DNA of 64,000 nucleotides from a virus. Location of the stretch: UHGV virus genome UHGV-0144373; one strand, written 5' to 3'. Position numbers and translations under genes: made by a program. The notes under the pieces are model-generated. The model made no database searches and was not told where the DNA came from. It saw nothing but the letters and a program-made list of their open reading frames with translations. Each line of letters starts with the position of its first letter. Position 1 is the stretch's first letter. Positions 35,525-42,563 of this stretch are shown one piece after another.

Positions 35525-36010
35525 ATGAATTACATGGAGATTAGACCATTTGACACAGCTAATGGTGAAGGGGTTCGTGTAAGCCTCTTCGTAGCTGGTT
35601 GTAAGCATCACTGTGAAGGCTGCTTTAACAGGGAGTCTTGGAAGTTTAATGCTGGTAAAGAGTTTACTTATGCAAACCTCTATGGAATCATCCAGCTAAT
35701 GGGTGATAATGCTATCAGTGGGTTGTCAATACTTGGTGGAGAACCTCTGGATGATAGAAATATTCGAGAGGTCACCAATATATGCAAACGTATTAAAACT
35801 ATTTATCCAGAGAAATCTATATGGCTCTGGACAGGTTTTCAACTACACGAAAAAATTCACCTAGATGTGATGAAATATGTTGACGTGGTGATTGATGGTA
35901 AGTATGATTCATCTAAACCCACAGTTAAACCATATCGTGGTTCTGATAACCAAAACCTCTGGAGAAAAGAGTATGGGTGGCAAGGTGATTGTCAGTGGAG
36001 AGCCGAGTAA
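35525..36010 (+). CDS. nrdG: anaerobic ribonucleotide reductase activating protein (radical SAM)
   Basis: CKHHCEGC (CxxxCxxC) radical-SAM cluster motif in a 161 aa product, the size of T4 NrdG. Confidence 0.8.
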   Translation: MNYMEIRPFDTANGEGVRVSLFVAGCKHHCEGCFNRESWKFNAGKEFTYANLYGIIQLMGDNAISGLSILGGEPLDDRNIREVTNICKRIKTIYPEKSIWLWTGFQLHEKIHLDVMKYVDVVIDGKYDSSKPTVKPYRGSDNQNLWRKEYGWQGDCQWRAE

Positions 36011-36134
36011 GTCTCGTCATAAAGTAGGTTATCGGTAAAGGACACTTTACAATGTTCTACAGAACAAACTTAACCGTTTGTGTCACTGAAAAAGAACTTA
36101 AAACATTTTGTGAAAATATTGAGAGAGATACGAA

Positions 36135-36392
36135 ATGGGACTCTGGAACAGTTTTAAATCAAGAGTAAAAGCAGCACTAGCCTCATTAGGTATGCTCACT
36201 GGCGTTGATGTGACTCATCTTATGCAGAACTTTAAGATGGATGAGAAGCTGGCTAATGAGATTATGAAAAGTATCTATGTAGGCCGTGGTAAAGGTGGTA
36301 AGAAACAAGCCCACCGTCCGTCTGGTGCAGCAGCTATTAAACGAGCAGCTAAGAAAGCTCGTAACCGTAAACGTAATAAGAAGGCTAAATAA
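36135..36392 (+). CDS. small protein with highly basic C-terminal tail
   Basis: C-terminus AAKKARNRKRNKKAK. Confidence 0.4.
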   Translation: MGLWNSFKSRVKAALASLGMLTGVDVTHLMQNFKMDEKLANEIMKSIYVGRGKGGKKQAHRPSGAAAIKRAAKKARNRKRNKKAK

Positions 36393-36394
36393 TC

Positions 36395-36715
36395 ATGAGC
36401 AAAGTTTATAACACTCGTAAATTACAGATTTTCGTACTGTGCCAGTTTATGGCTAAAGAATACAACTTCTACTATTGTGGTACAGGTTTTATTAGCGACG
36501 ATGATGGTTCATACCTACCATTCAAAGAAGCTGTAAAACTCTTTAATGAAGAGAAAAGCTCTAAGAAAGATATTGAAAAGGTTAAGCTAACCTACAGTAA
36601 GAAAGATAAGAAAATTATCTGCCTAGATAACTTTGTAAAAGTTACTGGAGAAGCAAAAGAGTTTATGGATGAGAGTGAGATTTCATTCACAAGCATCTTG
36701 AAAGTAGCTCAGTAA
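36395..36715 (+). CDS. hypothetical protein
   Basis: 106 aa. Confidence 0.4.
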   Translation: MSKVYNTRKLQIFVLCQFMAKEYNFYYCGTGFISDDDGSYLPFKEAVKLFNEEKSSKKDIEKVKLTYSKKDKKIICLDNFVKVTGEAKEFMDESEISFTSILKVAQ

Positions 36716-36728
36716 ACAGATACTATAA

Positions 36729-36752
36729 GGGAACTGTAAAGGTTCCCTTTTT
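36729..36752 (+). terminator. intrinsic terminator
   Basis: GGGAAC-TGTAAAG-GTTCCC followed by TTTTT. Confidence 0.7.
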
Positions 36753-36766
36753 ATTTTGGAGATGAT

Positions 36767-37282
36767 ATGTATCTGTCAAACCTGAAACGTTCTGCTGCAA
36801 TGTCAGTGTTAAGACTCAGCTTTGAGGAACGTCAAGAGTTCATTGACTCCCACCAATACGACCCTTCCAACTCGAATCACATGATACTCTGGAATCGTGA
36901 GAGTACTCGTGAAAGAGCACTATTCCGCTATTACCCACACTACACTATAGATAACCTGTATGAATTGTTTGTTGTGAAGAACACCATTACAGTGCTCAAT
37001 CAACTTTGCAGATACACAGGTAGTCAATCCTTCACATTAGGCCACCACAAACCTGTTACAAAGGGTGGTGAGCATCACTGTGCAAACTGGTTTATCCAGA
37101 CTAAACTTGATAACCAGAAGCAGGGAGATAACCTTCTAAGCACACCTAAGATGACCTACGAAGAGCAAGAGAAATATATCAAAAATAATATGCCAGATGT
37201 GCTTGACAACAACTATACAGATTTGGCAATATCTCTCCTGTTGAAGTTCGAGACAGTTTATAGGGCAACTTACAATGGCTAA
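36767..37282 (+). CDS. putative HNH nuclease
   Basis: LGHHKPVTKGGEHHCANW ... NQKQGDN resembles an HNH His-Me finger. Confidence 0.45.
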   Translation: MYLSNLKRSAAMSVLRLSFEERQEFIDSHQYDPSNSNHMILWNRESTRERALFRYYPHYTIDNLYELFVVKNTITVLNQLCRYTGSQSFTLGHHKPVTKGGEHHCANWFIQTKLDNQKQGDNLLSTPKMTYEEQEKYIKNNMPDVLDNNYTDLAISLLLKFETVYRATYNG

Positions 37283-37553
37283 AGAGAAGTGGGAGATTTT
37301 ACCATTAGTCAGTGAAGGCGGTAATGGTTGCGAAATGTACATGATACGTGGTCATGTTCCAGAACCAATTGCACTTGAGATGGTAAACAACTTTACAGAT
37401 GGCTCTTACAAAGACTTAGGGGAGCCAACTATAAAGCAGCAATGGGTAAAGCCTGTACCAGACAGCACAGGTGGCTGTAGTGTACTTTATCACGTTGTAG
37501 ACCCTGCAAAATGCAAATCTGCAATGGCAGTAACAAACGTAACTTTTGATTGA
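37275..37553 (+). CDS. hypothetical protein
   Basis: 92 aa. Confidence 0.4.
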   Translation: MAKEKWEILPLVSEGGNGCEMYMIRGHVPEPIALEMVNNFTDGSYKDLGEPTIKQQWVKPVPDSTGGCSVLYHVVDPAKCKSAMAVTNVTFD

Positions 37554-37562
37554 GAGAAAATT

Positions 37563-38018
37563 ATGATTTTTTGCAGCTTCCAAAAAAGAATTATTGAGAT
37601 TCTATACAATAAGTTTGGGACAGATAACACATTTGACTCAAATGAAGCTATTGAAGCCCTACAAGAAGGAAGTGATTATATCAAAAAACAGCCAATAGCA
37701 AACATCAGGTACTACTTGACTCAGATGAGAAAGTGGGGTGTGCTCATCGTGGTAGGACAGATTAAGCAACAAGGGAGGATGCTCATCAACCAATTAAACA
37801 GAGGTTTTATTGAGAAGCACATTCAGCTAGACTATTTACTTAAAGAGCCACGAAACCAACGTGAAGAGCAGCAAAAAGACTTAAGTGGTGGTGTAGGTGT
37901 GTCTCCAGACATAAAATTCTTTATTGGTGAGTTGATGTTTGATACACTCCAAGATGCTGTTGAACACTGCAAAAAGTATATTATCAAAGTAAAACGTGCA
38001 AAAATTATTTGGGAGTAA
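37563..38018 (+). CDS. tandem paralog family member 1 (type a)
   Basis: Shares N-terminal (I/L)LYNKFG(T/Y)(D/E)(N/K)TF and C-terminal (A/E)(V/I)EHCKK ... K(R/H)(A/R)K(I/V)IWE with the next three genes. Confidence 0.6.
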   Translation: MIFCSFQKRIIEILYNKFGTDNTFDSNEAIEALQEGSDYIKKQPIANIRYYLTQMRKWGVLIVVGQIKQQGRMLINQLNRGFIEKHIQLDYLLKEPRNQREEQQKDLSGGVGVSPDIKFFIGELMFDTLQDAVEHCKKYIIKVKRAKIIWE

Positions 38019-38022
38019 TAAC

Positions 38023-38418
38023 ATGTTTGAGCTTCTGAAGGTTCTGTATATAAATTTTGGCTATGATAAAACATTTTCTGGCTCACAACTAACTAAGGTT
38101 TTTAATAAATATCTACCACATGCTTCAATCAGGGATAAAGCTAATTGGTCTCACAGATTACGTAAAAGTGGGTATATTAGCGTTGTTGGGGCGACAGGCT
38201 TTAATAATGAGTATCTTATGAGAATCAATGAAAGCAAAGCTAAAAATGTGCTTTTAAATTGTAATGACTATCAACAAAAGGATGAAGAGGTCAGTGTAGG
38301 TGAAGTAGGGTACTTCATAGGTGACATACACTTTACCAGTATGGAGGCAGCAGTTGAGCATTGTAAGAGAACGGTTATCCAAACAAAAAGAAAGCGTATT
38401 GTTTGGGAAGAAGTTTAA
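38023..38418 (+). CDS. tandem paralog family member 2 (type b)
   Basis: Start set at the ATG at 38023 (GGGAG overlapping the upstream stop); the ORF-track start at 37996 is in-frame read-through. Same N- and C-terminal signatures. Confidence 0.6.
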   Translation: MFELLKVLYINFGYDKTFSGSQLTKVFNKYLPHASIRDKANWSHRLRKSGYISVVGATGFNNEYLMRINESKAKNVLLNCNDYQQKDEEVSVGEVGYFIGDIHFTSMEAAVEHCKRTVIQTKRKRIVWEEV

Positions 38419-38439
38419 ACATTTGATTAGGAATACACT

Positions 38440-38904
38440 ATGATTTTTTGCAATTTACAGAAGCACGTAATAGAGATTTTATACAAAACCTTCGGGACAG
38501 AAAACACTTTTGACTCTAACGAAGCAATTGACACATTAAGAGAGAATAGCCTTTTTATACGAGGCCAGTCAATCAGTAATACCCGTGGGTATCTGACAAT
38601 GTTAAGACAGTCTGGTGTACTGCTGACTGTAGGGCAGGTAAAAAGCAAAGGTAGACTAAGTATTAATCAATTAAATCGAGCCTTTATGGAGAAGCACATA
38701 CAACTGTCAAGGATGCTAGATAATACGTGTGAAGAGTTGGGGAGTCCACAAAAAGCGAGTTCATCTGATGTTAAAGATGTGGATGCACAACCTGACGTAA
38801 GATACTTTATTGCTGATGTTATGTTTAAAACACTCGATGAAGCTATTGAGCACTGCAAAAAGCATCTTATTAAAGTTAAACATGCAAAAGTTATTTGGGA
38901 GTGA
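38440..38904 (+). CDS. tandem paralog family member 3 (type a)
   Basis: Closest to member 1 (MIFCNLQKHVIEILYKTFGTENTFDSNEAI ... IEHCKKHLIKVKHAKVIWE). Confidence 0.6.
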   Translation: MIFCNLQKHVIEILYKTFGTENTFDSNEAIDTLRENSLFIRGQSISNTRGYLTMLRQSGVLLTVGQVKSKGRLSINQLNRAFMEKHIQLSRMLDNTCEELGSPQKASSSDVKDVDAQPDVRYFIADVMFKTLDEAIEHCKKHLIKVKHAKVIWE

Positions 38905-38908
38905 TGCT

Positions 38909-39289
38909 ATGATTGAACTGTTAAAAGTCCTATATAATAAGTTTGGTTATGATAAAACTTTTACTTGTTCACAGATACGTAGTATCCATGATAAGGAATT
39001 TCCAAATGTATCCAAGACAAACAAGTCAACTCGGTTCAATCGTCTTCGCCAGAGGGGTTACATTAAAATAGTTGGATACAAGAATAACTCTTTCGAGTAT
39101 GTAATGCAGATTAATAGAGAAGTGTCAAGTAAAATACTTGAAGAGCCAACAGCCGAAGAACAAAAGATACAAGACGGTGAAGTTCGCTTCTTTGTGGAGA
39201 AGGAAAGTTTTGGGTCAATAGATGAAGCTATCGAATATTGTAAAAAGAACATTATTCAGGTAAAGCGTAGAAAGGTTATTTGGGAATAA
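38909..39289 (+). CDS. tandem paralog family member 4 (type b)
   Basis: Start set at 38909; closest to member 2 (MIELLKVLYNKFGYDKTFT ... IEYCKKNIIQVKRRKVIWE). Confidence 0.6.
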   Translation: MIELLKVLYNKFGYDKTFTCSQIRSIHDKEFPNVSKTNKSTRFNRLRQRGYIKIVGYKNNSFEYVMQINREVSSKILEEPTAEEQKIQDGEVRFFVEKESFGSIDEAIEYCKKNIIQVKRRKVIWE

Positions 39290-39290
39290 A

Positions 39291-39306
39291 GAGAGAGAGA
39301 GAGAGA
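39291..39306. repeat. (GA)8 dinucleotide microsatellite at the prs ribosome-binding site
   Basis: gagagagagagagaga occupies the whole space between the stop of paralog 4 and the ATG at 39311. Confidence 0.9.
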
Positions 39307-39310
39307 AGCT

Positions 39311-40192
39311 ATGAAAACATCTATCCGTGTTACAGTTCATTCACCGACTAAAGGGACTCACGAAGAAGAGTTTAACATTATCCAATTCCCTTCTGGTGAG
39401 ATTGGTGGACACTTTTCACAAGAGCTTGTTGATTTTACTGCTTATGCAGCATCATCCATCAACAACGTGGTTATGATTGTAAAGGGTTATGACAAAGACA
39501 CATTGTTTGCTGTTGCACTTGCTAAAGAAGCAATTGATGATTTAGTTCCTCATGATTATGCTCTGAAGACTGTCATTTTTTACTACTTGCCAAATGCACG
39601 ATATGACCGTCACATGTTTAAAGGCGACGCAGCAGCTTTAAAGGTTTTTGCTAAACAGATTAATGCAATGGGGTTTGGCGCAGTCTGTGCAGTTGACCCT
39701 CACAGCTATGTACCAGATAACCTGTTTAACTGCTTCCAGAGTATCCCTCAAAAGGAAATTGCAGTCCACTATGCAAATGACCCTCTGATTGATTACTTAG
39801 TAGCTCCAGATGCAGGTGCTTCTAAGAAGATTGCAGAGACTGCTAAAGAGGTAGATAAACCATACATCACAATGTCTAAAGTACGCAACCTCAAGACTGG
39901 TGAAATCACTGGTATGCGAATCCTTGATGATGTTGATTTGACAGATAAAACTGTCATGATTCTGGATGATATTTGTGATGGAGGCCGAACCTTCATAGAA
40001 GCAGCTAAACACCTCCGTAAAGCAGGTGCAAAACGTGTGGAACTATATGTAACACATGGTATCTTCTCTAAAGGTGTTGAAAACTTACTTGACAATGGTA
40101 TTGACCATATCTACACTACAAACTCTTTAGGCGAAGCTAAAGACCGTGGCTTAACACATTACGGCCAAGTTACTGTAGCAACCATTGATTGA
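39311..40192 (+). CDS. prs: ribose-phosphate pyrophosphokinase-like protein (Prs family; possibly an ADPR pyrophosphokinase of a NAD+ reconstitution pathway)
   Basis: Type I PRT motif MILDDICDGGRT and overall Prs-like length (293 aa). Confidence 0.75.
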   Translation: MKTSIRVTVHSPTKGTHEEEFNIIQFPSGEIGGHFSQELVDFTAYAASSINNVVMIVKGYDKDTLFAVALAKEAIDDLVPHDYALKTVIFYYLPNARYDRHMFKGDAAALKVFAKQINAMGFGAVCAVDPHSYVPDNLFNCFQSIPQKEIAVHYANDPLIDYLVAPDAGASKKIAETAKEVDKPYITMSKVRNLKTGEITGMRILDDVDLTDKTVMILDDICDGGRTFIEAAKHLRKAGAKRVELYVTHGIFSKGVENLLDNGIDHIYTTNSLGEAKDRGLTHYGQVTVATID

Positions 40193-40201
40193 AACTTTAT
40201 A

Positions 40202-40223
40202 GGGGCTTAAAAGCCCCATTTTG
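40202..40223 (+). terminator. hairpin, possible weak terminator
   Basis: GGGGCTT-AAA-AGCCCC followed by ATTTT. Confidence 0.4.
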
Positions 40224-40237
40224 AGAGAGATTAAAAG

Positions 40238-42019
40238 ATGACTAAATCACTTTATGCAGTACCAGCAGGTCTTAATGCAGATGCTTACAAGGCATCACAT
40301 ATATATCAGTATCCAGATGCTACACAATATCTTATGTTGAACCTGACACCACGTAGTGATAAATGGTTTAACAGTCCTTTAGCAATTGACGGTGTAGTGG
40401 CTTTTGGTATTCAACGTTTTGTTAAAGATTACTTGATAGACCACTGGAATGCCACTTTCTTTGAACGTGATAAAAAAGAAGCAATTGACGAAATCTTAGA
40501 AGTCATGAATGGTGTTCTGGGTAAAGATGCTATCGGTCGAGAGCATTGGGAAGCACTTCACGACTTAGGCTATCTACCAGTTGAAGTATACGCTGTAGAA
40601 GAAGGTGCAGTTGTTCCTATGCGTGTCCCAATGATTGTCTTCCAGAACACTGTTTCAGGCTTCCATTGGGTAGCAGGGTATCTGGAAGATGCTTTCTCTG
40701 CTGAGATTTGGAAGGCTTGCACTATTGCAACTATTGCATTGCATTACAAACGCATCTGTAAGAAGTGGGCTGACCTTACTTGCGACAATGACTTACATTT
40801 ACCCTATCAGTGCCATGACTTTGCTATGCGTGGTATGTCCGGCTTTACTGATGACGCATTTAACGCTGTAGGTCACTTAACCAGCTTTAAAGGAACTGAT
40901 AGCTTCCCTGCTGTGTATACGGCTAAACGAATCTATGGACAGTCCTACCCAATCTCTGATATTGGTAGCTCTGTACCAGCCACTGAACACTCTGTGATGT
41001 GTGCAAACATTGCTTGGGAAGGTGGTAATGAATTGATTGAAGATGAAAGACGTTTTAAAGGTGAGTTACAAACCTTCCGTCGTTTCTTAACAGAAACTTA
41101 CCCAACTGGTATTGCAAGTATTGTTTCAGACACTTATAACTTCTGGAGAACTGTGTCAGAAATCTTACCAGCACTACGTAAAGAAATTATGGAACGTGAC
41201 GGTAAACTGGTAATTCGCCCTGACTCTGGAGACCCTGTACATATTGTCACAGGTTATAAAGCAATCCACTTAGAGTGTGCTAAAAAGGCTTATTATGAGC
41301 ACCTAAGCAAGCTGGAAGCCAGTGACACAATGCTGAATGCTGTTCTGAACATGAAGCTTGAAAACATCAGCTATGGTATTGCTGGATGGCTACTGTCAGA
41401 AGGATACGAAATGGTTGTTGATAGAGAAGACTTTGAAGTTGCTGATACAGTGATGTTGAAAAATGCTTATATGGTTGGTTCTGCAAACGTTATAACACGT
41501 CCTGTGGCTGAGATTGATGGAGCTATTAAGACACTGTACAACATCTTTGGAGGAACTATTAACTCTAAAGGGTTTAAGGTACTGGATGAGCATATCGGTC
41601 TTATCTATGGTGACTCTATCACACTGGAACGTGCAAACGAAATCCTGAAGCGTCTGTATGAAATGGGTTTTGCAAGCTCTAACGTAGTATTTGGTGTAGG
41701 CTCTTACACTTACCAGTACATGACTCGTGACACCTTTGCATTTGCTGTCAAAGCAACTCTTGCAAGCATTGGTGGTAAAGAGATTATGCTTGCAAAAGAC
41801 CCTAAAACAGATAGTGGTGTTAAGAAATCTGCTTTTGGCGGTGTAGCACCTATGTGGGATGGTGATAAGTTGAAAGCTGTAGATGGCTATGGATTCCAGA
41901 GCTTTGCAGATGCACTTGAACATCCAGCTTGTGCTTTACGTTTAGTCTTTAGTGACTCTGAGCAGTACGGTTACACATCTCTTGGTGATATTCGAAATAA
42001 TATTGACAAGCAGCTTTAA
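40238..42019 (+). CDS. nadV: nicotinamide phosphoribosyltransferase-like protein (Nampt/NadV family)
   Basis: GTDSFPA ... SVPATEHS matches the conserved Nampt GTD(T/S) ... S(V/I)PA(A/T)EHS region; 593 aa. Confidence 0.8.
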   Translation: MTKSLYAVPAGLNADAYKASHIYQYPDATQYLMLNLTPRSDKWFNSPLAIDGVVAFGIQRFVKDYLIDHWNATFFERDKKEAIDEILEVMNGVLGKDAIGREHWEALHDLGYLPVEVYAVEEGAVVPMRVPMIVFQNTVSGFHWVAGYLEDAFSAEIWKACTIATIALHYKRICKKWADLTCDNDLHLPYQCHDFAMRGMSGFTDDAFNAVGHLTSFKGTDSFPAVYTAKRIYGQSYPISDIGSSVPATEHSVMCANIAWEGGNELIEDERRFKGELQTFRRFLTETYPTGIASIVSDTYNFWRTVSEILPALRKEIMERDGKLVIRPDSGDPVHIVTGYKAIHLECAKKAYYEHLSKLEASDTMLNAVLNMKLENISYGIAGWLLSEGYEMVVDREDFEVADTVMLKNAYMVGSANVITRPVAEIDGAIKTLYNIFGGTINSKGFKVLDEHIGLIYGDSITLERANEILKRLYEMGFASSNVVFGVGSYTYQYMTRDTFAFAVKATLASIGGKEIMLAKDPKTDSGVKKSAFGGVAPMWDGDKLKAVDGYGFQSFADALEHPACALRLVFSDSEQYGYTSLGDIRNNIDKQL

Positions 42020-42032
42020 AAGTATATGATAA

Positions 42033-42055
42033 GAGGCTCCTACGGGAGCCTTTTT
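42033..42055 (+). terminator. intrinsic terminator
   Basis: GAGGCTCC-TACG-GGAGCC followed by TTTTT. Confidence 0.7.
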
Positions 42056-42072
42056 AATTTCTGGAGAAAACT

Positions 42073-42408
42073 ATGAAAATCAAAGAGATGAATATCAACA
42101 TTGTCCTAGAAGAACGTTGGGAGAATATTAAGAAATCTGAAGATGGTAAAAAGTTCCTTAACAAAATTTTAGTAGCAGCTAAAGAAGAACTAACAGGTAA
42201 GGTTGCAGCAGCAATCACAATAAAGGTTTGTGTAAAAGGTCTCCCAGACAATCACCAATTTGCACTTGACGAGTTTAAAGAAGGCTTCTACAATCCAAAC
42301 AAACAGATGATTGAAAGTAACTTTGCAGTATCTACAAGTATCGTCCATGACAGAAGCTTTATCCTTTACAAAAATATGAGAGGTGAGTCATGCAAGCATA
42401 TTGGATAG
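42073..42408 (+). CDS. hypothetical protein
   Basis: 111 aa. Confidence 0.4.
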   Translation: MKIKEMNINIVLEERWENIKKSEDGKKFLNKILVAAKEELTGKVAAAITIKVCVKGLPDNHQFALDEFKEGFYNPNKQMIESNFAVSTSIVHDRSFILYKNMRGESCKHIG

Positions 42409-42563
42409 AAATTTTACTGTCACTTGGTAGTGTAGCAGTATTTGTTTACCTTCTTTGCAAGTACTATGCAGAGTGCAAGAAGTGTGATTACTGCAACGGG
42501 GAAGGGTATACAAGAGCAGGTTGTTGCCCTATTTGTGGTGGTTCTGGTAAAATGTTTAATAAG
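42390..42563 (+). CDS. small membrane-anchored zinc-finger protein (not in ORF track, 57 aa)
   Basis: ATG at 42390 with GAGAGGTGAG upstream; product MQAYWIEILLSLGSVAVFVYLLCKYY ... CDYCNGEG ... CPICGGSG has one TM helix and two DnaJ-type CxxCxGxG motifs. Confidence 0.45.

What the first reader, a model, noticed from the sequence alone, without database searches (positions are those of the whole stretch)
37563..39289. Tandem array of four paralogous small genes in an a-b-a'-b' arrangement
Four consecutive genes of about 130-150 aa share an N-terminal (I/L)LYNKFG(T/Y)(D/E)(N/K)TF(D/T) region and a C-terminal (A/E)(V/I)EHCKK.(I/V)I(K/Q)(V/T)K(R/H)(A/R)K(I/V)IWE tail. Members 1 and 3 are most alike, as are 2 and 4, so a two-gene unit appears to have been duplicated. 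The N-terminal region looks like a winged-helix-type fold and the middle of each protein is the most divergent part. Diversified tandem paralogs in phages often mark specificity determinants such as regulators, decoys or inhibitors with different targets. The array sits immediately upstream of the Prs-like/Nampt-like pair.
Basis: seen in the sequence. Interest (0 to 1): 0.65.

Follow-up and report, generated by a model that had tools for sequence, protein, structure and literature searches.

The report
Paired winged-helix genes inside NARP1 operon
Four related small genes in a Felix O1-like phage are two stacked copies of an optional two-gene module that encodes predicted DNA-binding-type (winged-helix) proteins of unknown function. 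The module is inserted in an operon whose neighbouring genes are known to defeat bacterial immunity, which makes it a testable candidate counter-defence or regulatory module.

Summary
Four real, full-length paralogous genes lie at 37563-39289 in a-b-a'-b' order. Identities are a/a' 55%, b/b' 41% and a/b-type 24-31%, with BLASTP E-values from 1e-13 to 1e-63.

The window is a Felixounavirus. The "Prs/Nampt" pair just downstream is the NARP1 NAD+-reconstitution operon (Adps/Namat; orthologues of Bas63 gp79/gp80).

The array is optional. About 82% of Ounavirinae records have an empty site. Other phages carry one a-b pair or a different pair (alpha-beta). The count is always even.

Phylogeny and 12 class-specific columns show that every cassette is a position-1 (X) gene plus a position-2 (Y) gene. 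The window holds two anciently diverged X-Y modules, with synonymous sites saturated. It is not a recent duplication.

Each cassette is flanked by direct repeats of the junction sequence, up to 37 nt and perfect in Mordin. This explains gain and loss.

The family is an ORFan: 17 clusters among 5.8 billion proteins, with no Pfam, PADLOC or PDB match. Orthologues are under purifying selection (dN/dS 0.08-0.20). Function remains untested.

The parts
37563..38018 (+). Gene a: position-1 (X-class, clade A1) paralogue, 151 aa. Winged helix at about residues 5-78, post-wing helices to about residue 96, disordered acidic linker at about 97-117, beta-beta-alpha C-terminal module 118-142, and basic tail ending IIWE.
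38023..38418 (+). Gene b: position-2 (Y-class, clade B1) paralogue, 131 aa. It starts 4 nt after the stop codon of a. Its Shine-Dalgarno sequence (GGGAG) lies in the W-E codons that end gene a.
38440..38904 (+). Gene a': position-1 (X-class, clade A2) paralogue, 154 aa. It is orthologous to the first gene of the two-gene cassettes in Mordin and Pr103Blw.
   Evidence: Bootstrap support is 100% for clade A2 and 92% for a' grouping with Pr103Blw_123. dN/dS 0.17.
38909..39289 (+). Gene b': position-2 (Y-class, clade B2) paralogue, 126 aa. It starts 4 nt after the stop codon of a', again behind a GGGAG sequence.
   Evidence: The B1+B2 clade has 100% support. dN/dS 0.11. B2 was seen only in four-gene arrays.
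37541..37562 (+). Left junction J: the last codons of the upstream 92-aa gene (..TTTTGATTGA), the GAGAG ribosome-binding site, and the spacer before gene a.
   Evidence: The empty site in heid carries a single copy of this sequence directly in front of prs.
38419..38439 (+). Spacer between the two pairs. It retains a decayed copy of junction J (AACATTTGATTAGGAATACACT compared with AACTTTTGATTGAGAGAAAATT).
   Evidence: Local alignment of the sequence upstream of a against the sequence upstream of a'.
39290..39310 (+). Right junction: an expanded (AG)n run plus the ribosome-binding site in front of prs/Adps. This is the third copy of the GAGAG junction core.
   Evidence: The run length differs between array-bearing phages (window, finno, L020).
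37945..38014 (+). 70-nt 3'-terminal stretch of gene a that is 84% identical at the DNA level to 38831-38900 in a'. It is a possible intragenomic gene-conversion tract.
   Evidence: Repeat family D1. pS is 0.20 over the last 32 codons of a against a', compared with 0.81 over the rest of the gene and 0.37-0.81 for the same 32 codons in A1/A2 pairs from different genomes.
36767..37553 (+). Context: the two upstream operon genes. They are the 171-aa orthologue of Bas63 gp77 (36767-37282) and the 92-aa orthologue of gp78 (37275-37553).
   Evidence: 97.7% and 98.9% identity to bas63_0077 and bas63_0078. gp77 is reported to counter retron Ec67 (PMC11482910). There is a weak HNH-endonuclease PHROG match.
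39311..42019 (+). Context: the NARP1 genes. Adps is annotated Prs (39311-40192) and Namat is annotated Nampt (40238-42019).
   Evidence: Pfam Pribosyltran/Pribosyl_synth and NAPRTase/NAMPT_N. 78.5% and 97.3% identity to Bas63 gp79 and gp80. NARP1 function was shown in Bas63 (10.1101/2024.02.11.579819; PMC11482910).
36698..36749 (+). Context: a promoter-like site (TTGAAA-17-TACTAT) followed by a terminator-like hairpin, at the upstream boundary of the transcription unit.
   Evidence: The sequence is nearly identical in array-bearing and empty-site phages.
42031..42054 (+). Context: a terminator-like hairpin that closes the unit after Namat.
   Evidence: A terminator is annotated at the equivalent place in Mordin.

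Best explanation
The array is two stacked copies of an optional, horizontally exchanged two-gene module (X-Y). It is inserted into the short spacer between the gp78 orthologue and Adps (prs) of the NARP1 counter-defence operon of a Felix O1-like phage.

What is shown:
- All four genes are real paralogues under purifying selection.
- Every occupied locus holds alternating position-1 (X: clades A1/A2) and position-2 (Y: clades A3/B1/B2) genes in equal numbers: 0, 2 or 4 genes in total.
- The a-b pair exists alone in other phages, and a' has orthologues paired with a different Y gene.
- Cassettes are bracketed by direct repeats of the junction sequence (end of the upstream gene plus the GAGAG RBS plus ATGA).
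- The array is more uniform between phages than its flanks.

What is predicted:
- Each protein is a MarR/PadR-like winged-helix domain with a basic recognition helix.
- This is followed by a disordered acidic linker.
- The protein ends in a small family-specific beta-beta-alpha module with a basic tail ending in W-E.

What is inferred:
- The genes are co-transcribed with gp77, gp78, Adps and Namat, and Y is translationally coupled to X in the a-b type.
- X and Y work together, probably as a hetero-oligomer held by the conserved C-terminal modules.
- The complex binds nucleic acid through the winged helices.
- It gives a conditional, host-dependent benefit, either counter-defence or regulation linked to it, rather than a core function.

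Stacking two diverged modules would add a second specificity. Gain, loss and stacking occur by recombination between the flanking junction repeats.
For: Paralogy.

Optional locus: 209 of 255 Ounavirinae records have the empty junction, including Felix O1, Moogle, phiSUSP1 and Bas63. Only 16 records carry the family, 11 with 4 copies and 5 with 2 copies.

Other states of the locus: stand-alone a-b cassettes, alpha-beta cassettes and further four-gene arrays.

X/Y classes: the split {A1,A2} against {A3,B1,B2,c} has 96% bootstrap support and all clades have 100%. Twelve alignment columns separate X from Y perfectly, for example wing R72 and A146 in X against Y74 and K/R146 in Y.

Coupling: a 4-nt spacer and a GGGAG inside the W-E codons, in both a->b and a'->b' and in all stand-alone a-b cassettes.

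Flanking repeats: perfect 37 nt in Mordin, 23 nt in L016, 29 nt imperfect in L021, 16-17 nt elsewhere, and a relic between the two pairs.

Diversity: 0.4-4.6% inside the array against 5-10% in the flanks. pS is 0.03-0.07 inside against 0.20-0.21 in the flanks.

Operon: terminator-like hairpins at 36727-36749 and 42031-42054, and none predicted between the four genes (one terminator-like stem at 38181-38209 lies inside gene b; the scan total of 4 is no more than the 4.3 expected from shuffles).

Context: Bas63 gp79/gp80 form NARP1 and counter SIR2-HerA, gp77 counters retron Ec67, and rIIA/B counter Qat. Extra genes in NARP1 operons have twice proved to be counter-defence genes. The same upstream segment is deleted or replaced by a DNA methyltransferase in other Felixounaviruses.
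Against: - No experiment or homology links the family to any function. There is no Pfam, NCBIfam, PADLOC or PDB sequence match.
- The X-Y interaction is inferred only from co-occurrence and coupling.
- No candidate operator was found. The operon's control region is the same with and without the array, and the junction motif is not repeated elsewhere in the window.
- The C-terminal module and tail are only moderately or poorly predicted (pLDDT 73-76 and below 50).
- A text search of a preprint cataloguing 268 anti-defence proteins found no mention of winged-helix, helix-turn-helix or HTH.
- One contig keeps the alpha-beta pair after Adps-Namat was deleted (L021), so the module does not strictly depend on NARP1.
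- Lower diversity inside the array could partly reflect constraint rather than recent spread.
Confidence: 0.55

Rival explanations
1. The proteins are ordinary accessory transcription regulators. As MarR/PadR-like winged-helix dimers they bind phage or host promoters to tune gene expression, for example of the NARP1 operon or of host genes, in the way Aca proteins control anti-CRISPR operons or NrtR controls bacterial prs-nadV. They would have no direct role against host immunity.
For: The best structural matches are dimeric DNA-binding regulators: SarX, PadR, MarR, Fur and RosR. The recognition helix and wing are basic, and the ..L..(L/M)R..G(V/Y)(L/I).. signature ends the recognition helix. 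The variable surface of helix 3 between clades fits different DNA specificities.
Against: The family is absent from about 82% of relatives that have the same operon and an identical control region. No repeated operator-like motif was found. One contig retains the pair without Adps/Namat. The proteins lack the dimerisation helices typical of MarR and have an unrelated C-terminal module instead. There is no sequence match to any HTH family.
Confidence: 0.25
2. One reading: a recent in-situ tandem duplication of an a-b unit, followed by diversifying selection. The copies would then be fast-evolving specificity determinants (decoys or inhibitors with different targets).
For: The a-b-a'-b' order, with a/a' and b/b' as sister clades. 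Identical 4-nt coupling spacers in both units. A relic of the junction sequence between the units.
Against: Synonymous sites between the units are saturated (pS 0.69-0.86). Clade A2 (a') includes genes from Mooglevirus and other cassettes at 73-81% identity, so the a/a' split predates this array. Orthologues show purifying selection with dN/dS 0.08-0.20. The most divergent segment is a predicted disordered linker.
Confidence: 0.1
3. The proteins are protein-binding inhibitors or decoys rather than nucleic-acid binders. The winged helix would mimic kleisin-type or other protein-interaction winged helices, and would block a host SMC-type or NLR-type defence complex such as Wadjet or MukBEF.
Confidence: 0.07
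4. The cassette is selfish passenger DNA. It persists and spreads only because its flanking repeats and co-infection recombination move it, with no benefit to the phage.
For: Patchy distribution, precise presence/absence junctions, flanking direct repeats, and lower diversity than the flanks.
Against: All four reading frames are intact in all 10 phages compared and in both metagenomic arrays, with dN/dS 0.08-0.20. No nuclease, integrase or transposase domain is present. The conserved histidine and asparagine ligands of a beta-beta-alpha-Me nuclease are absent from the C-terminal module. Translational coupling is conserved.
Confidence: 0.05

Closest known systems
Extended NARP1 operons: accessory genes inside the Adps-Namat operon, namely Adpp (Macro-domain ADPR-1P phosphatase; bioRxiv 10.64898/2026.01.28.702374) and RyDEP (DyoEdafos gp78; bioRxiv 10.64898/2026.05.28.727677)
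   Same: These are variable extra genes present in only some phages and placed within or against the NARP1 operon. RyDEP was recognised by comparison with a close relative that lacks it. The array here was delimited in the same way.
   Different: The proteins here have no Macro or RyR domain and no enzyme-like fold. They are winged-helix proteins, come as X-Y pairs and are stacked. No biochemical link to ADPR or NAD is indicated. One contig keeps the pair without NARP1.
MarR/PadR/SarA-type winged-helix transcription regulators (PDB 6k8e SarX, 3l7w and 5zqh PadR-like, 5h3r MarR) and small viral winged-helix proteins (STIV F93, 2co5)
   Different: Sequence identity is 6-16% and no HMM match exists. 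The proteins have a unique C-terminal beta-beta-alpha module and W-E tail in place of the MarR or PadR dimerisation elements. They are encoded as heterologous pairs rather than as a single homodimeric regulator.
Aca (anti-CRISPR-associated) HTH regulators next to phage anti-defence genes (from my own knowledge)
   Same: Small DNA-binding-fold proteins encoded inside phage counter-defence operons.
   Different: Aca proteins are single HTH genes that are consistently linked to acr genes and bind inverted repeats in the acr promoter. Here the genes are paired, absent from most phages that have the same operon, and no array-specific operator exists in the control region.
PeSL-mediated modular shuffling in hyperplastic regions of T4-type phages (Arbiol et al. 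2010, PMC2839356)
   Same: Small ORFan genes are gained, lost or replaced between conserved genes through recombination at short repeated flanking sequences. The indels are precise between close relatives.
   Different: The repeat here is a local duplication of the junction (end of the upstream gene plus RBS plus start codon). It is not a genome-wide promoter/stem-loop motif, and there is only one good copy in the window.
PHROG phrog_29478 (unknown function)
   Same: All four proteins and the distant homologue P0018 match it.
   Different: The PHROG carries no annotation. The split into X and Y classes and the domain architecture are not described there.

Membership tests
Winged-helix (wHTH) fold, MarR/PadR-like | H1-S1-H2-H3-S2-wing-S3 topology | tested here: met
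Winged-helix (wHTH) fold, MarR/PadR-like | Sequence membership in a curated HTH or winged-helix family (Pfam MarR, PadR, HTH_*; NCBIfam) | tested here: not met
   No family reaches its threshold. The best hits are unrelated, at E 0.03-0.1. The PDB profile search gave only chance SH2 hits at E 0.1.
Winged-helix (wHTH) fold, MarR/PadR-like | Sequence-specific DNA binding as a dimer | not testable with these tools
   There is only indirect support from a basic helix 3 and wing.
NARP1-associated accessory counter-defence genes (Adpp, RyDEP) | Encoded within or adjacent to the Adps-Namat operon and variably present | tested here: met
   The array lies 21 nt upstream of Adps, with no intergenic terminator predicted within the array. 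The site is empty in 209 of 255 records.
NARP1-associated accessory counter-defence genes (Adpp, RyDEP) | Macro or RyR-type ADPR-processing domain | tested here: not met
   No Pfam match, and the fold is a winged helix.
NARP1-associated accessory counter-defence genes (Adpp, RyDEP) | Rescues the phage from a defence system | not testable with these tools
   Needs plaque assays.
Recent tandem gene duplication | Low synonymous divergence between copies, with copies forming a monophyletic group within the genome | tested here: not met
   pS is 0.69-0.86, which is saturated. The a' gene groups with genes from other phages' cassettes, 100% for clade A2. Only the last 32 codons of a against a' show low pS (0.20), which suggests local gene conversion.
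HNH / beta-beta-alpha-Me nuclease (considered for the C-terminal module) | Conserved catalytic His at the end of beta1 and Asn/His metal ligands in the helix | tested here: not met
   The invariant residues of the module are F120, F126, A132, C136, I141, K144, W150 and E151. H135 alternates with Y, and no histidine lies in or after the first strand.
Known anti-phage defence proteins (PADLOC) | Match to a PADLOC model | tested here: not met
   No families matched any of the four proteins.
PeSL-type mobile cassette | Cassette flanked by copies of a repeated sequence | tested here: met
   Direct repeats of 16-37 nt flank every cassette.
PeSL-type mobile cassette | The repeat is a genome-wide early promoter plus stem-loop motif | tested here: not met
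   Only one copy within 3 mismatches in 64 kb. The repeat is the gene end plus the RBS.
phrog_29478 | Significant HMM match | tested here: met
   E 5e-63, 3e-14, 9e-67 and 7e-15.

The most novel reading that the evidence does not exclude
The X-Y winged-helix pair could be a new class of phage counter-defence module that rides in the NARP1 operon. In this reading, a heteromeric winged-helix complex neutralises a host immune system, for example by sequestering or masking a nucleic-acid component or trigger, or by blocking a DNA-binding defence complex. Different X-Y types (a-b, a'-b', alpha-beta) would target different systems or alleles, and stacking two modules would broaden protection.
Probability: 0.25. 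Interest if true: 0.75.

Novelty: new member of a known kind. Interest (0 to 1): 0.5.

Why it matters
The NARP1 operon and its neighbours in Felix O1-like phages are experimentally shown counter-defence genes. Variable extra genes in NARP1 operons have twice led to new immune-evasion mechanisms.

This family is an unannotated ORFan restricted to Ounavirinae. It occupies exactly such a position, is clearly optional yet under purifying selection, and has an unusual rule: it always comes as X-Y pairs, which are sometimes stacked.

Natural near-isogenic comparisons exist. Finno carries four genes and heid carries none; both were isolated on E. coli MG1655 from Danish wastewater. Bas63 has an empty site and established genetics. 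The function is therefore directly testable.

Even if the genes prove to be plain regulators, the locus is a clean example of how short junction repeats let phages gain, lose and stack gene modules at one site.

Tried and rejected
- Curated family scans (Pfam, NCBIfam, PADLOC) of all four proteins gave nothing above threshold.
- A PDB sequence profile search gave only chance SH2 (Nck) matches at E 0.1 to the YFIG..F.T..EA.EH segment.
- An exhaustive HMM search of 1.84 billion representatives found only the family itself, one distant homologue (P0018) and two repeat proteins. P0019 is a beta-propeller-like repeat protein. P0020 has Listeria-Bacteroides-type repeats with an F.GWFIG..EFKTL.DCF.Y motif. 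I rejected both as compositional or repeat artefacts.
- A search with the C-terminal domain alone returned nothing, not even family members, so it was uninformative. P0018 is a singleton.
- BFVD Foldseek returned only the family itself and generic small winged-helix proteins. The afdb50 library was unavailable.
- Scans of IMG/VR and GTDB genomes found no relatives. The JGI metagenome scan added one more four-gene array and one frameshifted alpha-type fragment.
- A beta-beta-alpha-Me nuclease reading of the C-terminal module was rejected because no ligands are conserved.
- A zinc-finger reading was rejected because only one cysteine is invariant.
- No operator-like repeats or array-specific changes were found in the operon control region.
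- No Rfam family matches in 36000-42500.
- No further family copies exist in the window.
Full report
**1. Observation**

The four ORFs are at the stated coordinates. I place the starts of the second and fourth genes at the ATGs at 38023 and 38909. Each lies 4 nt after the preceding stop codon and 7-8 nt behind a GGGAG sequence formed by the terminal W-E codons of the upstream gene. This gives a = 151 aa, b = 131 aa, a' = 154 aa and b' = 126 aa.

The alignment shows the N-terminal LYxxFG..TF motif and the C-terminal A(V/I)E(H/Y)CK...K..K(I/V)(I/V)WE motif in all four. BLASTP gives:
- a/a' 55% (E 2e-63)
- b/b' 41% (E 5e-35)
- a-type against b-type 24-31% (E 1e-13 to 1e-17), over the full length

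All four match phrog_29478, which has unknown function. No other copy exists in the 64-kb window.

**2. The genome and the locus**

The region is 97-98% identical to a subset of Felixounavirus (Felix O1-like, Ounavirinae) genomes.

- Only 11 GenBank records (10 distinct phages) hold the four genes.
- In heid, and in 209 of 255 Ounavirinae records, the upstream 92-aa gene abuts prs directly. These include Felix O1, Moogle, phiSUSP1 and Bas63.
- Five records (Mordin, which is held twice, Henu11, BSwM KMM2 and Pr103Blw) and several metagenomic contigs carry two a-type genes at the same site. I call these alpha and beta.
- Five metagenomic Ounavirinae contigs carry a single a-b pair with the same 4-nt spacer.
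- Two further metagenomic genomes carry a-b-a'-b'.

The gene count is therefore 0, 2 or 4, and never odd.

**3. Rarity of the family**

A profile search of 5.8 billion proteins found 17 clusters, all 90-154 aa and all without a Pfam domain. Every encoding contig I then examined was Ounavirinae-like. An exhaustive HMM search of 1.84 billion representatives added one credible distant homologue, P0018 (125 aa). Only its last ~40 residues are clearly conserved (...FFVGEIWFHSEAEAIEHCRQHIIQKKTRKIVWE). It is encoded elsewhere in a related phage contig and is a singleton. IMG/VR and GTDB genomes hold none.

**4. History of the array**

Neighbour-joining with bootstrap gives five clades, each at 100%:
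- A1 (a)
- A2 (a' and alpha)
- A3 (beta)
- B1 (b)
- B2 (b'), which groups with B1

The split {A1,A2} | {A3,B1,B2,P0018} has 96% support. All first-position genes fall in A1+A2 and all second-position genes fall outside it.

Twelve alignment columns separate first-position from second-position genes without exception. They include a wing arginine and A146 in X, against a wing tyrosine and K/R146 in Y. Beta shares these Y features even though it looks a-like overall. The simplest reading is that every cassette is an X-Y pair and that the window carries two such pairs.

The pairs are old:
- Synonymous sites between a/a' and b/b' are saturated (pS 0.69-0.86).
- The a' gene is closer to the first gene of Pr103Blw (81%) and of Mordin (73%) than to a (56%).

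So "a two-gene unit was duplicated" fits the topology, because a/a' and b/b' are sister clades. But the event long predates this phage lineage. The present array could equally have arisen by stacking two diverged cassettes through recombination.

One local exception exists. The last 32 codons of a and a' in the same genome have pS 0.20. This compares with 0.81 over the rest of the gene, and with 0.37-0.81 for the same 32 codons in A1/A2 pairs taken from different genomes. It points to a short gene-conversion tract, which is the 70-nt repeat at 37945-38014 and 38831-38900. The sample is small, at 17 synonymous sites.

**5. How cassettes come and go**

Every cassette is preceded and followed by copies of the junction sequence: the last codons of the upstream gene, the GAGAG RBS, and ATGA.
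- Mordin: a perfect 37-nt direct repeat
- L016: 23 nt
- L021: 29 nt, imperfect
- Elsewhere: 16-17 nt
- This window: the right-hand copy has an expanded (AG)n run

The b-to-a' spacer (38419-38439) retains a decayed copy. The empty site has a single copy. The motif is not a genome-wide element. Such repeats allow precise loss, gain and stacking by homologous or unequal recombination during co-infection.

Diversity data fit recent exchange. Among ten array-bearing phages, nucleotide diversity is 0.4-4.6% inside the array but 5-10% in the flanks, and it changes near the array borders. pS is 0.03-0.07 inside and 0.20-0.21 outside.

**6. The proteins**

AlphaFold2 models of a (mean pLDDT 77.7) and b (75.2) agree:
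- A confident winged helix (H1-S1-H2-H3-S2-wing-S3; pLDDT 93-95 in a and 87-92 in b) with a following helix.
- A low-confidence acidic linker.
- A beta-beta-alpha module (pLDDT about 73-76).
- A poorly predicted basic tail ending in W-E.

The recognition helix carries net charge +2 to +6. It ends in the ..L..(L/M)R..G-hydrophobic signature common to ArsR, MarR and Lrp-type winged-helix proteins (the signature is from my own knowledge).

The C-terminal module has an invariant stripe (E134 in at least 90% of sequences, then C136, K137, I141, K144) and the terminal W-E. It has no conserved metal ligands, so a nuclease or zinc-finger reading is rejected.

**7. Selection**

All four genes are intact in all ten phages compared. 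dN/dS is 0.08 (a), 0.20 (b), 0.17 (a') and 0.11 (b'). These values are similar to the flanking genes, at 0.06 and 0.12. The genes are functional and under purifying selection. No sign of diversifying selection is seen at this depth.

**8. Context**

Terminator-like hairpins at 36727-36749 and 42031-42054 bracket a unit of eight genes: the 171-aa gene, the 92-aa gene, a, b, a', b', prs and nampt. No terminator-like site lies between the four genes. One low-GC stem (38181-38209) falls inside gene b, and the scan as a whole found no more sites than shuffled sequence gives (4 found, 4.3 expected).

The four flanking proteins are 97.7%, 98.9%, 78.5% and 97.3% identical to Bas63 gp77, gp78, gp79 and gp80. 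The published evidence for Bas63 is:
- gp79/gp80 are Adps and Namat, the NARP1 pathway. It rebuilds NAD+ from ADPR and nicotinamide and overcomes SIR2-HerA and other NAD-depleting defences (bioRxiv 10.1101/2024.02.11.579819).
- A knockout screen confirmed this. It also reported gp77 as a counter to retron Ec67 and rIIA/rIIB as counters to QatABCD (PMC11482910).

Extra genes inside NARP1 operons have twice proved to be immune-evasion factors:
- The Macro-domain phosphatase Adpp (10.64898/2026.01.28.702374).
- The glycosidase RyDEP, which was found by comparing near-identical phages (10.64898/2026.05.28.727677).

The segment upstream of Adps is also plastic in other Felixounaviruses. gp78 is lost in BPS17W1. 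gp77 and gp78 are lost in 35FD. Both are replaced by an adenine DNA methyltransferase in SEP1. The array thus sits in a counter-defence hotspot.

Against a strict functional tie to NARP1, contig L021 keeps the alpha-beta pair although Adps-Namat has been deleted.

**9. Mechanism**

Shown: paralogy, the optional and paired nature of the cassettes, the flanking repeats, and purifying selection.

Predicted: the winged-helix fold and the two-domain architecture.

Inferred: co-transcription with the counter-defence genes, translational coupling of Y to X, X-Y hetero-oligomerisation through the conserved C-terminal modules, nucleic-acid binding through basic winged helices, and a conditional host-dependent benefit.

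I put about 0.55 on this overall picture. Within it, I put about 0.35 on a direct counter-defence role and about 0.25 on the separate rival of plain transcriptional regulation.

Two findings argue against a dedicated regulator of this operon. The control region is essentially identical with and without the array. No operator-like repeat was found.

**10. Comparison and verdict**

The family works most like small phage winged-helix DNA-binding proteins. It occupies the kind of position held by Adpp and RyDEP in extended NARP1 operons. It fails the sequence and domain criteria for MarR, PadR, Macro, RyR, HNH and PADLOC families. It is an unannotated ORFan (phrog_29478).

I rate it a new member of a known kind: accessory winged-helix genes in a phage counter-defence hotspot. 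Its distinctive feature is an obligate X-Y pairing rule with stackable modules. Interest is moderate (0.5). Nothing here is mechanistically surprising yet. The locus is nonetheless a well-delimited candidate that can be tested directly, because natural phages with and without the cassette are available.

Noticed in passing
window 39290-39310: An (AG)n run lies directly in front of the Adps (prs) start codon. Its length varies between otherwise near-identical array-bearing phages: AGAGAGAGAGAGAGAGAAGCT in the window, AGAGAGAGAAAACT in finno and ACAGAGAGAGAGAAACT in L020. It overlaps the RBS and could modulate Adps translation.
   Followed up: partly
window 39311-40192: Adps (prs) is only 78.5% identical to Bas63 gp79, whereas the flanking gp77, gp78 and Namat orthologues are 97-99% identical. 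The junction search also split the records into two identity bands, 90-95% and 60-80%. This suggests two Adps allele types exchanged by recombination.
   Followed up: partly
window 36767-37282: The 171-aa orthologue of Bas63 gp77 (reported to counter retron Ec67) contains a GHHKPVTKGGEHHCANWF..DNQKQG motif. It gives a weak HNH-endonuclease PHROG match (E 1.8e-4) and a sub-threshold DUF7167 hit. The PhageMaP preprint describes gp77 as GIY-YIG. The two assignments disagree.
   Followed up: no
L021 3527-3901: In this metagenomic Ounavirinae contig, Adps-Namat has been deleted. What remains is a fusion ORF: the first ~22 codons of prs joined to the 111-aa gene that normally follows Namat. The alpha-beta pair upstream is intact.
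   Followed up: partly
L029 1732-2434 (Salmonella phage SEP1); L028; L027: Other Felixounaviruses vary in the same segment upstream of Adps. SEP1 has an adenine DNA methyltransferase (annotated as two CDS) in place of gp77 and gp78. 35FD lacks both genes. BPS17W1 lacks gp78.
   Followed up: partly
window 36698-36749: A promoter-like site (TTGAAA-17-TACTAT) runs straight into a strong terminator-like hairpin (AAGGGAACTGTAAAGGTTCCCTT plus a T-run). It is conserved from Felixounavirus to Mooglevirus. The layout resembles the composite promoter/stem-loop (PeSL) motifs of T4-type phages.
   Followed up: no
window 37945-38014 and 38831-38900: The 3' ends of a and a' are 84% identical at the DNA level, with pS 0.20. 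This compares with 0.81 over the rest of the gene, and with 0.37-0.81 for the same codons in A1/A2 pairs from different genomes. It points to a short intragenomic gene-conversion tract.
   Followed up: partly
window 37996-38022 and 38882-38908: The mechanical ORFs of b and b' begin with near-identical extensions, MQKLFGSNN and MQKLFGSDA. These are the conserved 3' ends of a and a' read in another frame. Several GenBank records annotate the long form of b' (135 aa, overlapping a' by 23 nt).
   Followed up: partly
protein database result compared with contig L020 3470-3850: The b' type (126 aa) was not returned by the 5.8-billion-protein profile search, although a gene of that length is called on contig L020. 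I could not explain the omission. It may be a limit of the word index.
   Followed up: no
L013 10505-11245: The contig that encodes the lone distant homologue P0018 also encodes a Macro-domain protein and a WYL_2-like protein a few genes downstream. An NAPRTase-family gene and rIIA/rIIB lie upstream.
   Followed up: no
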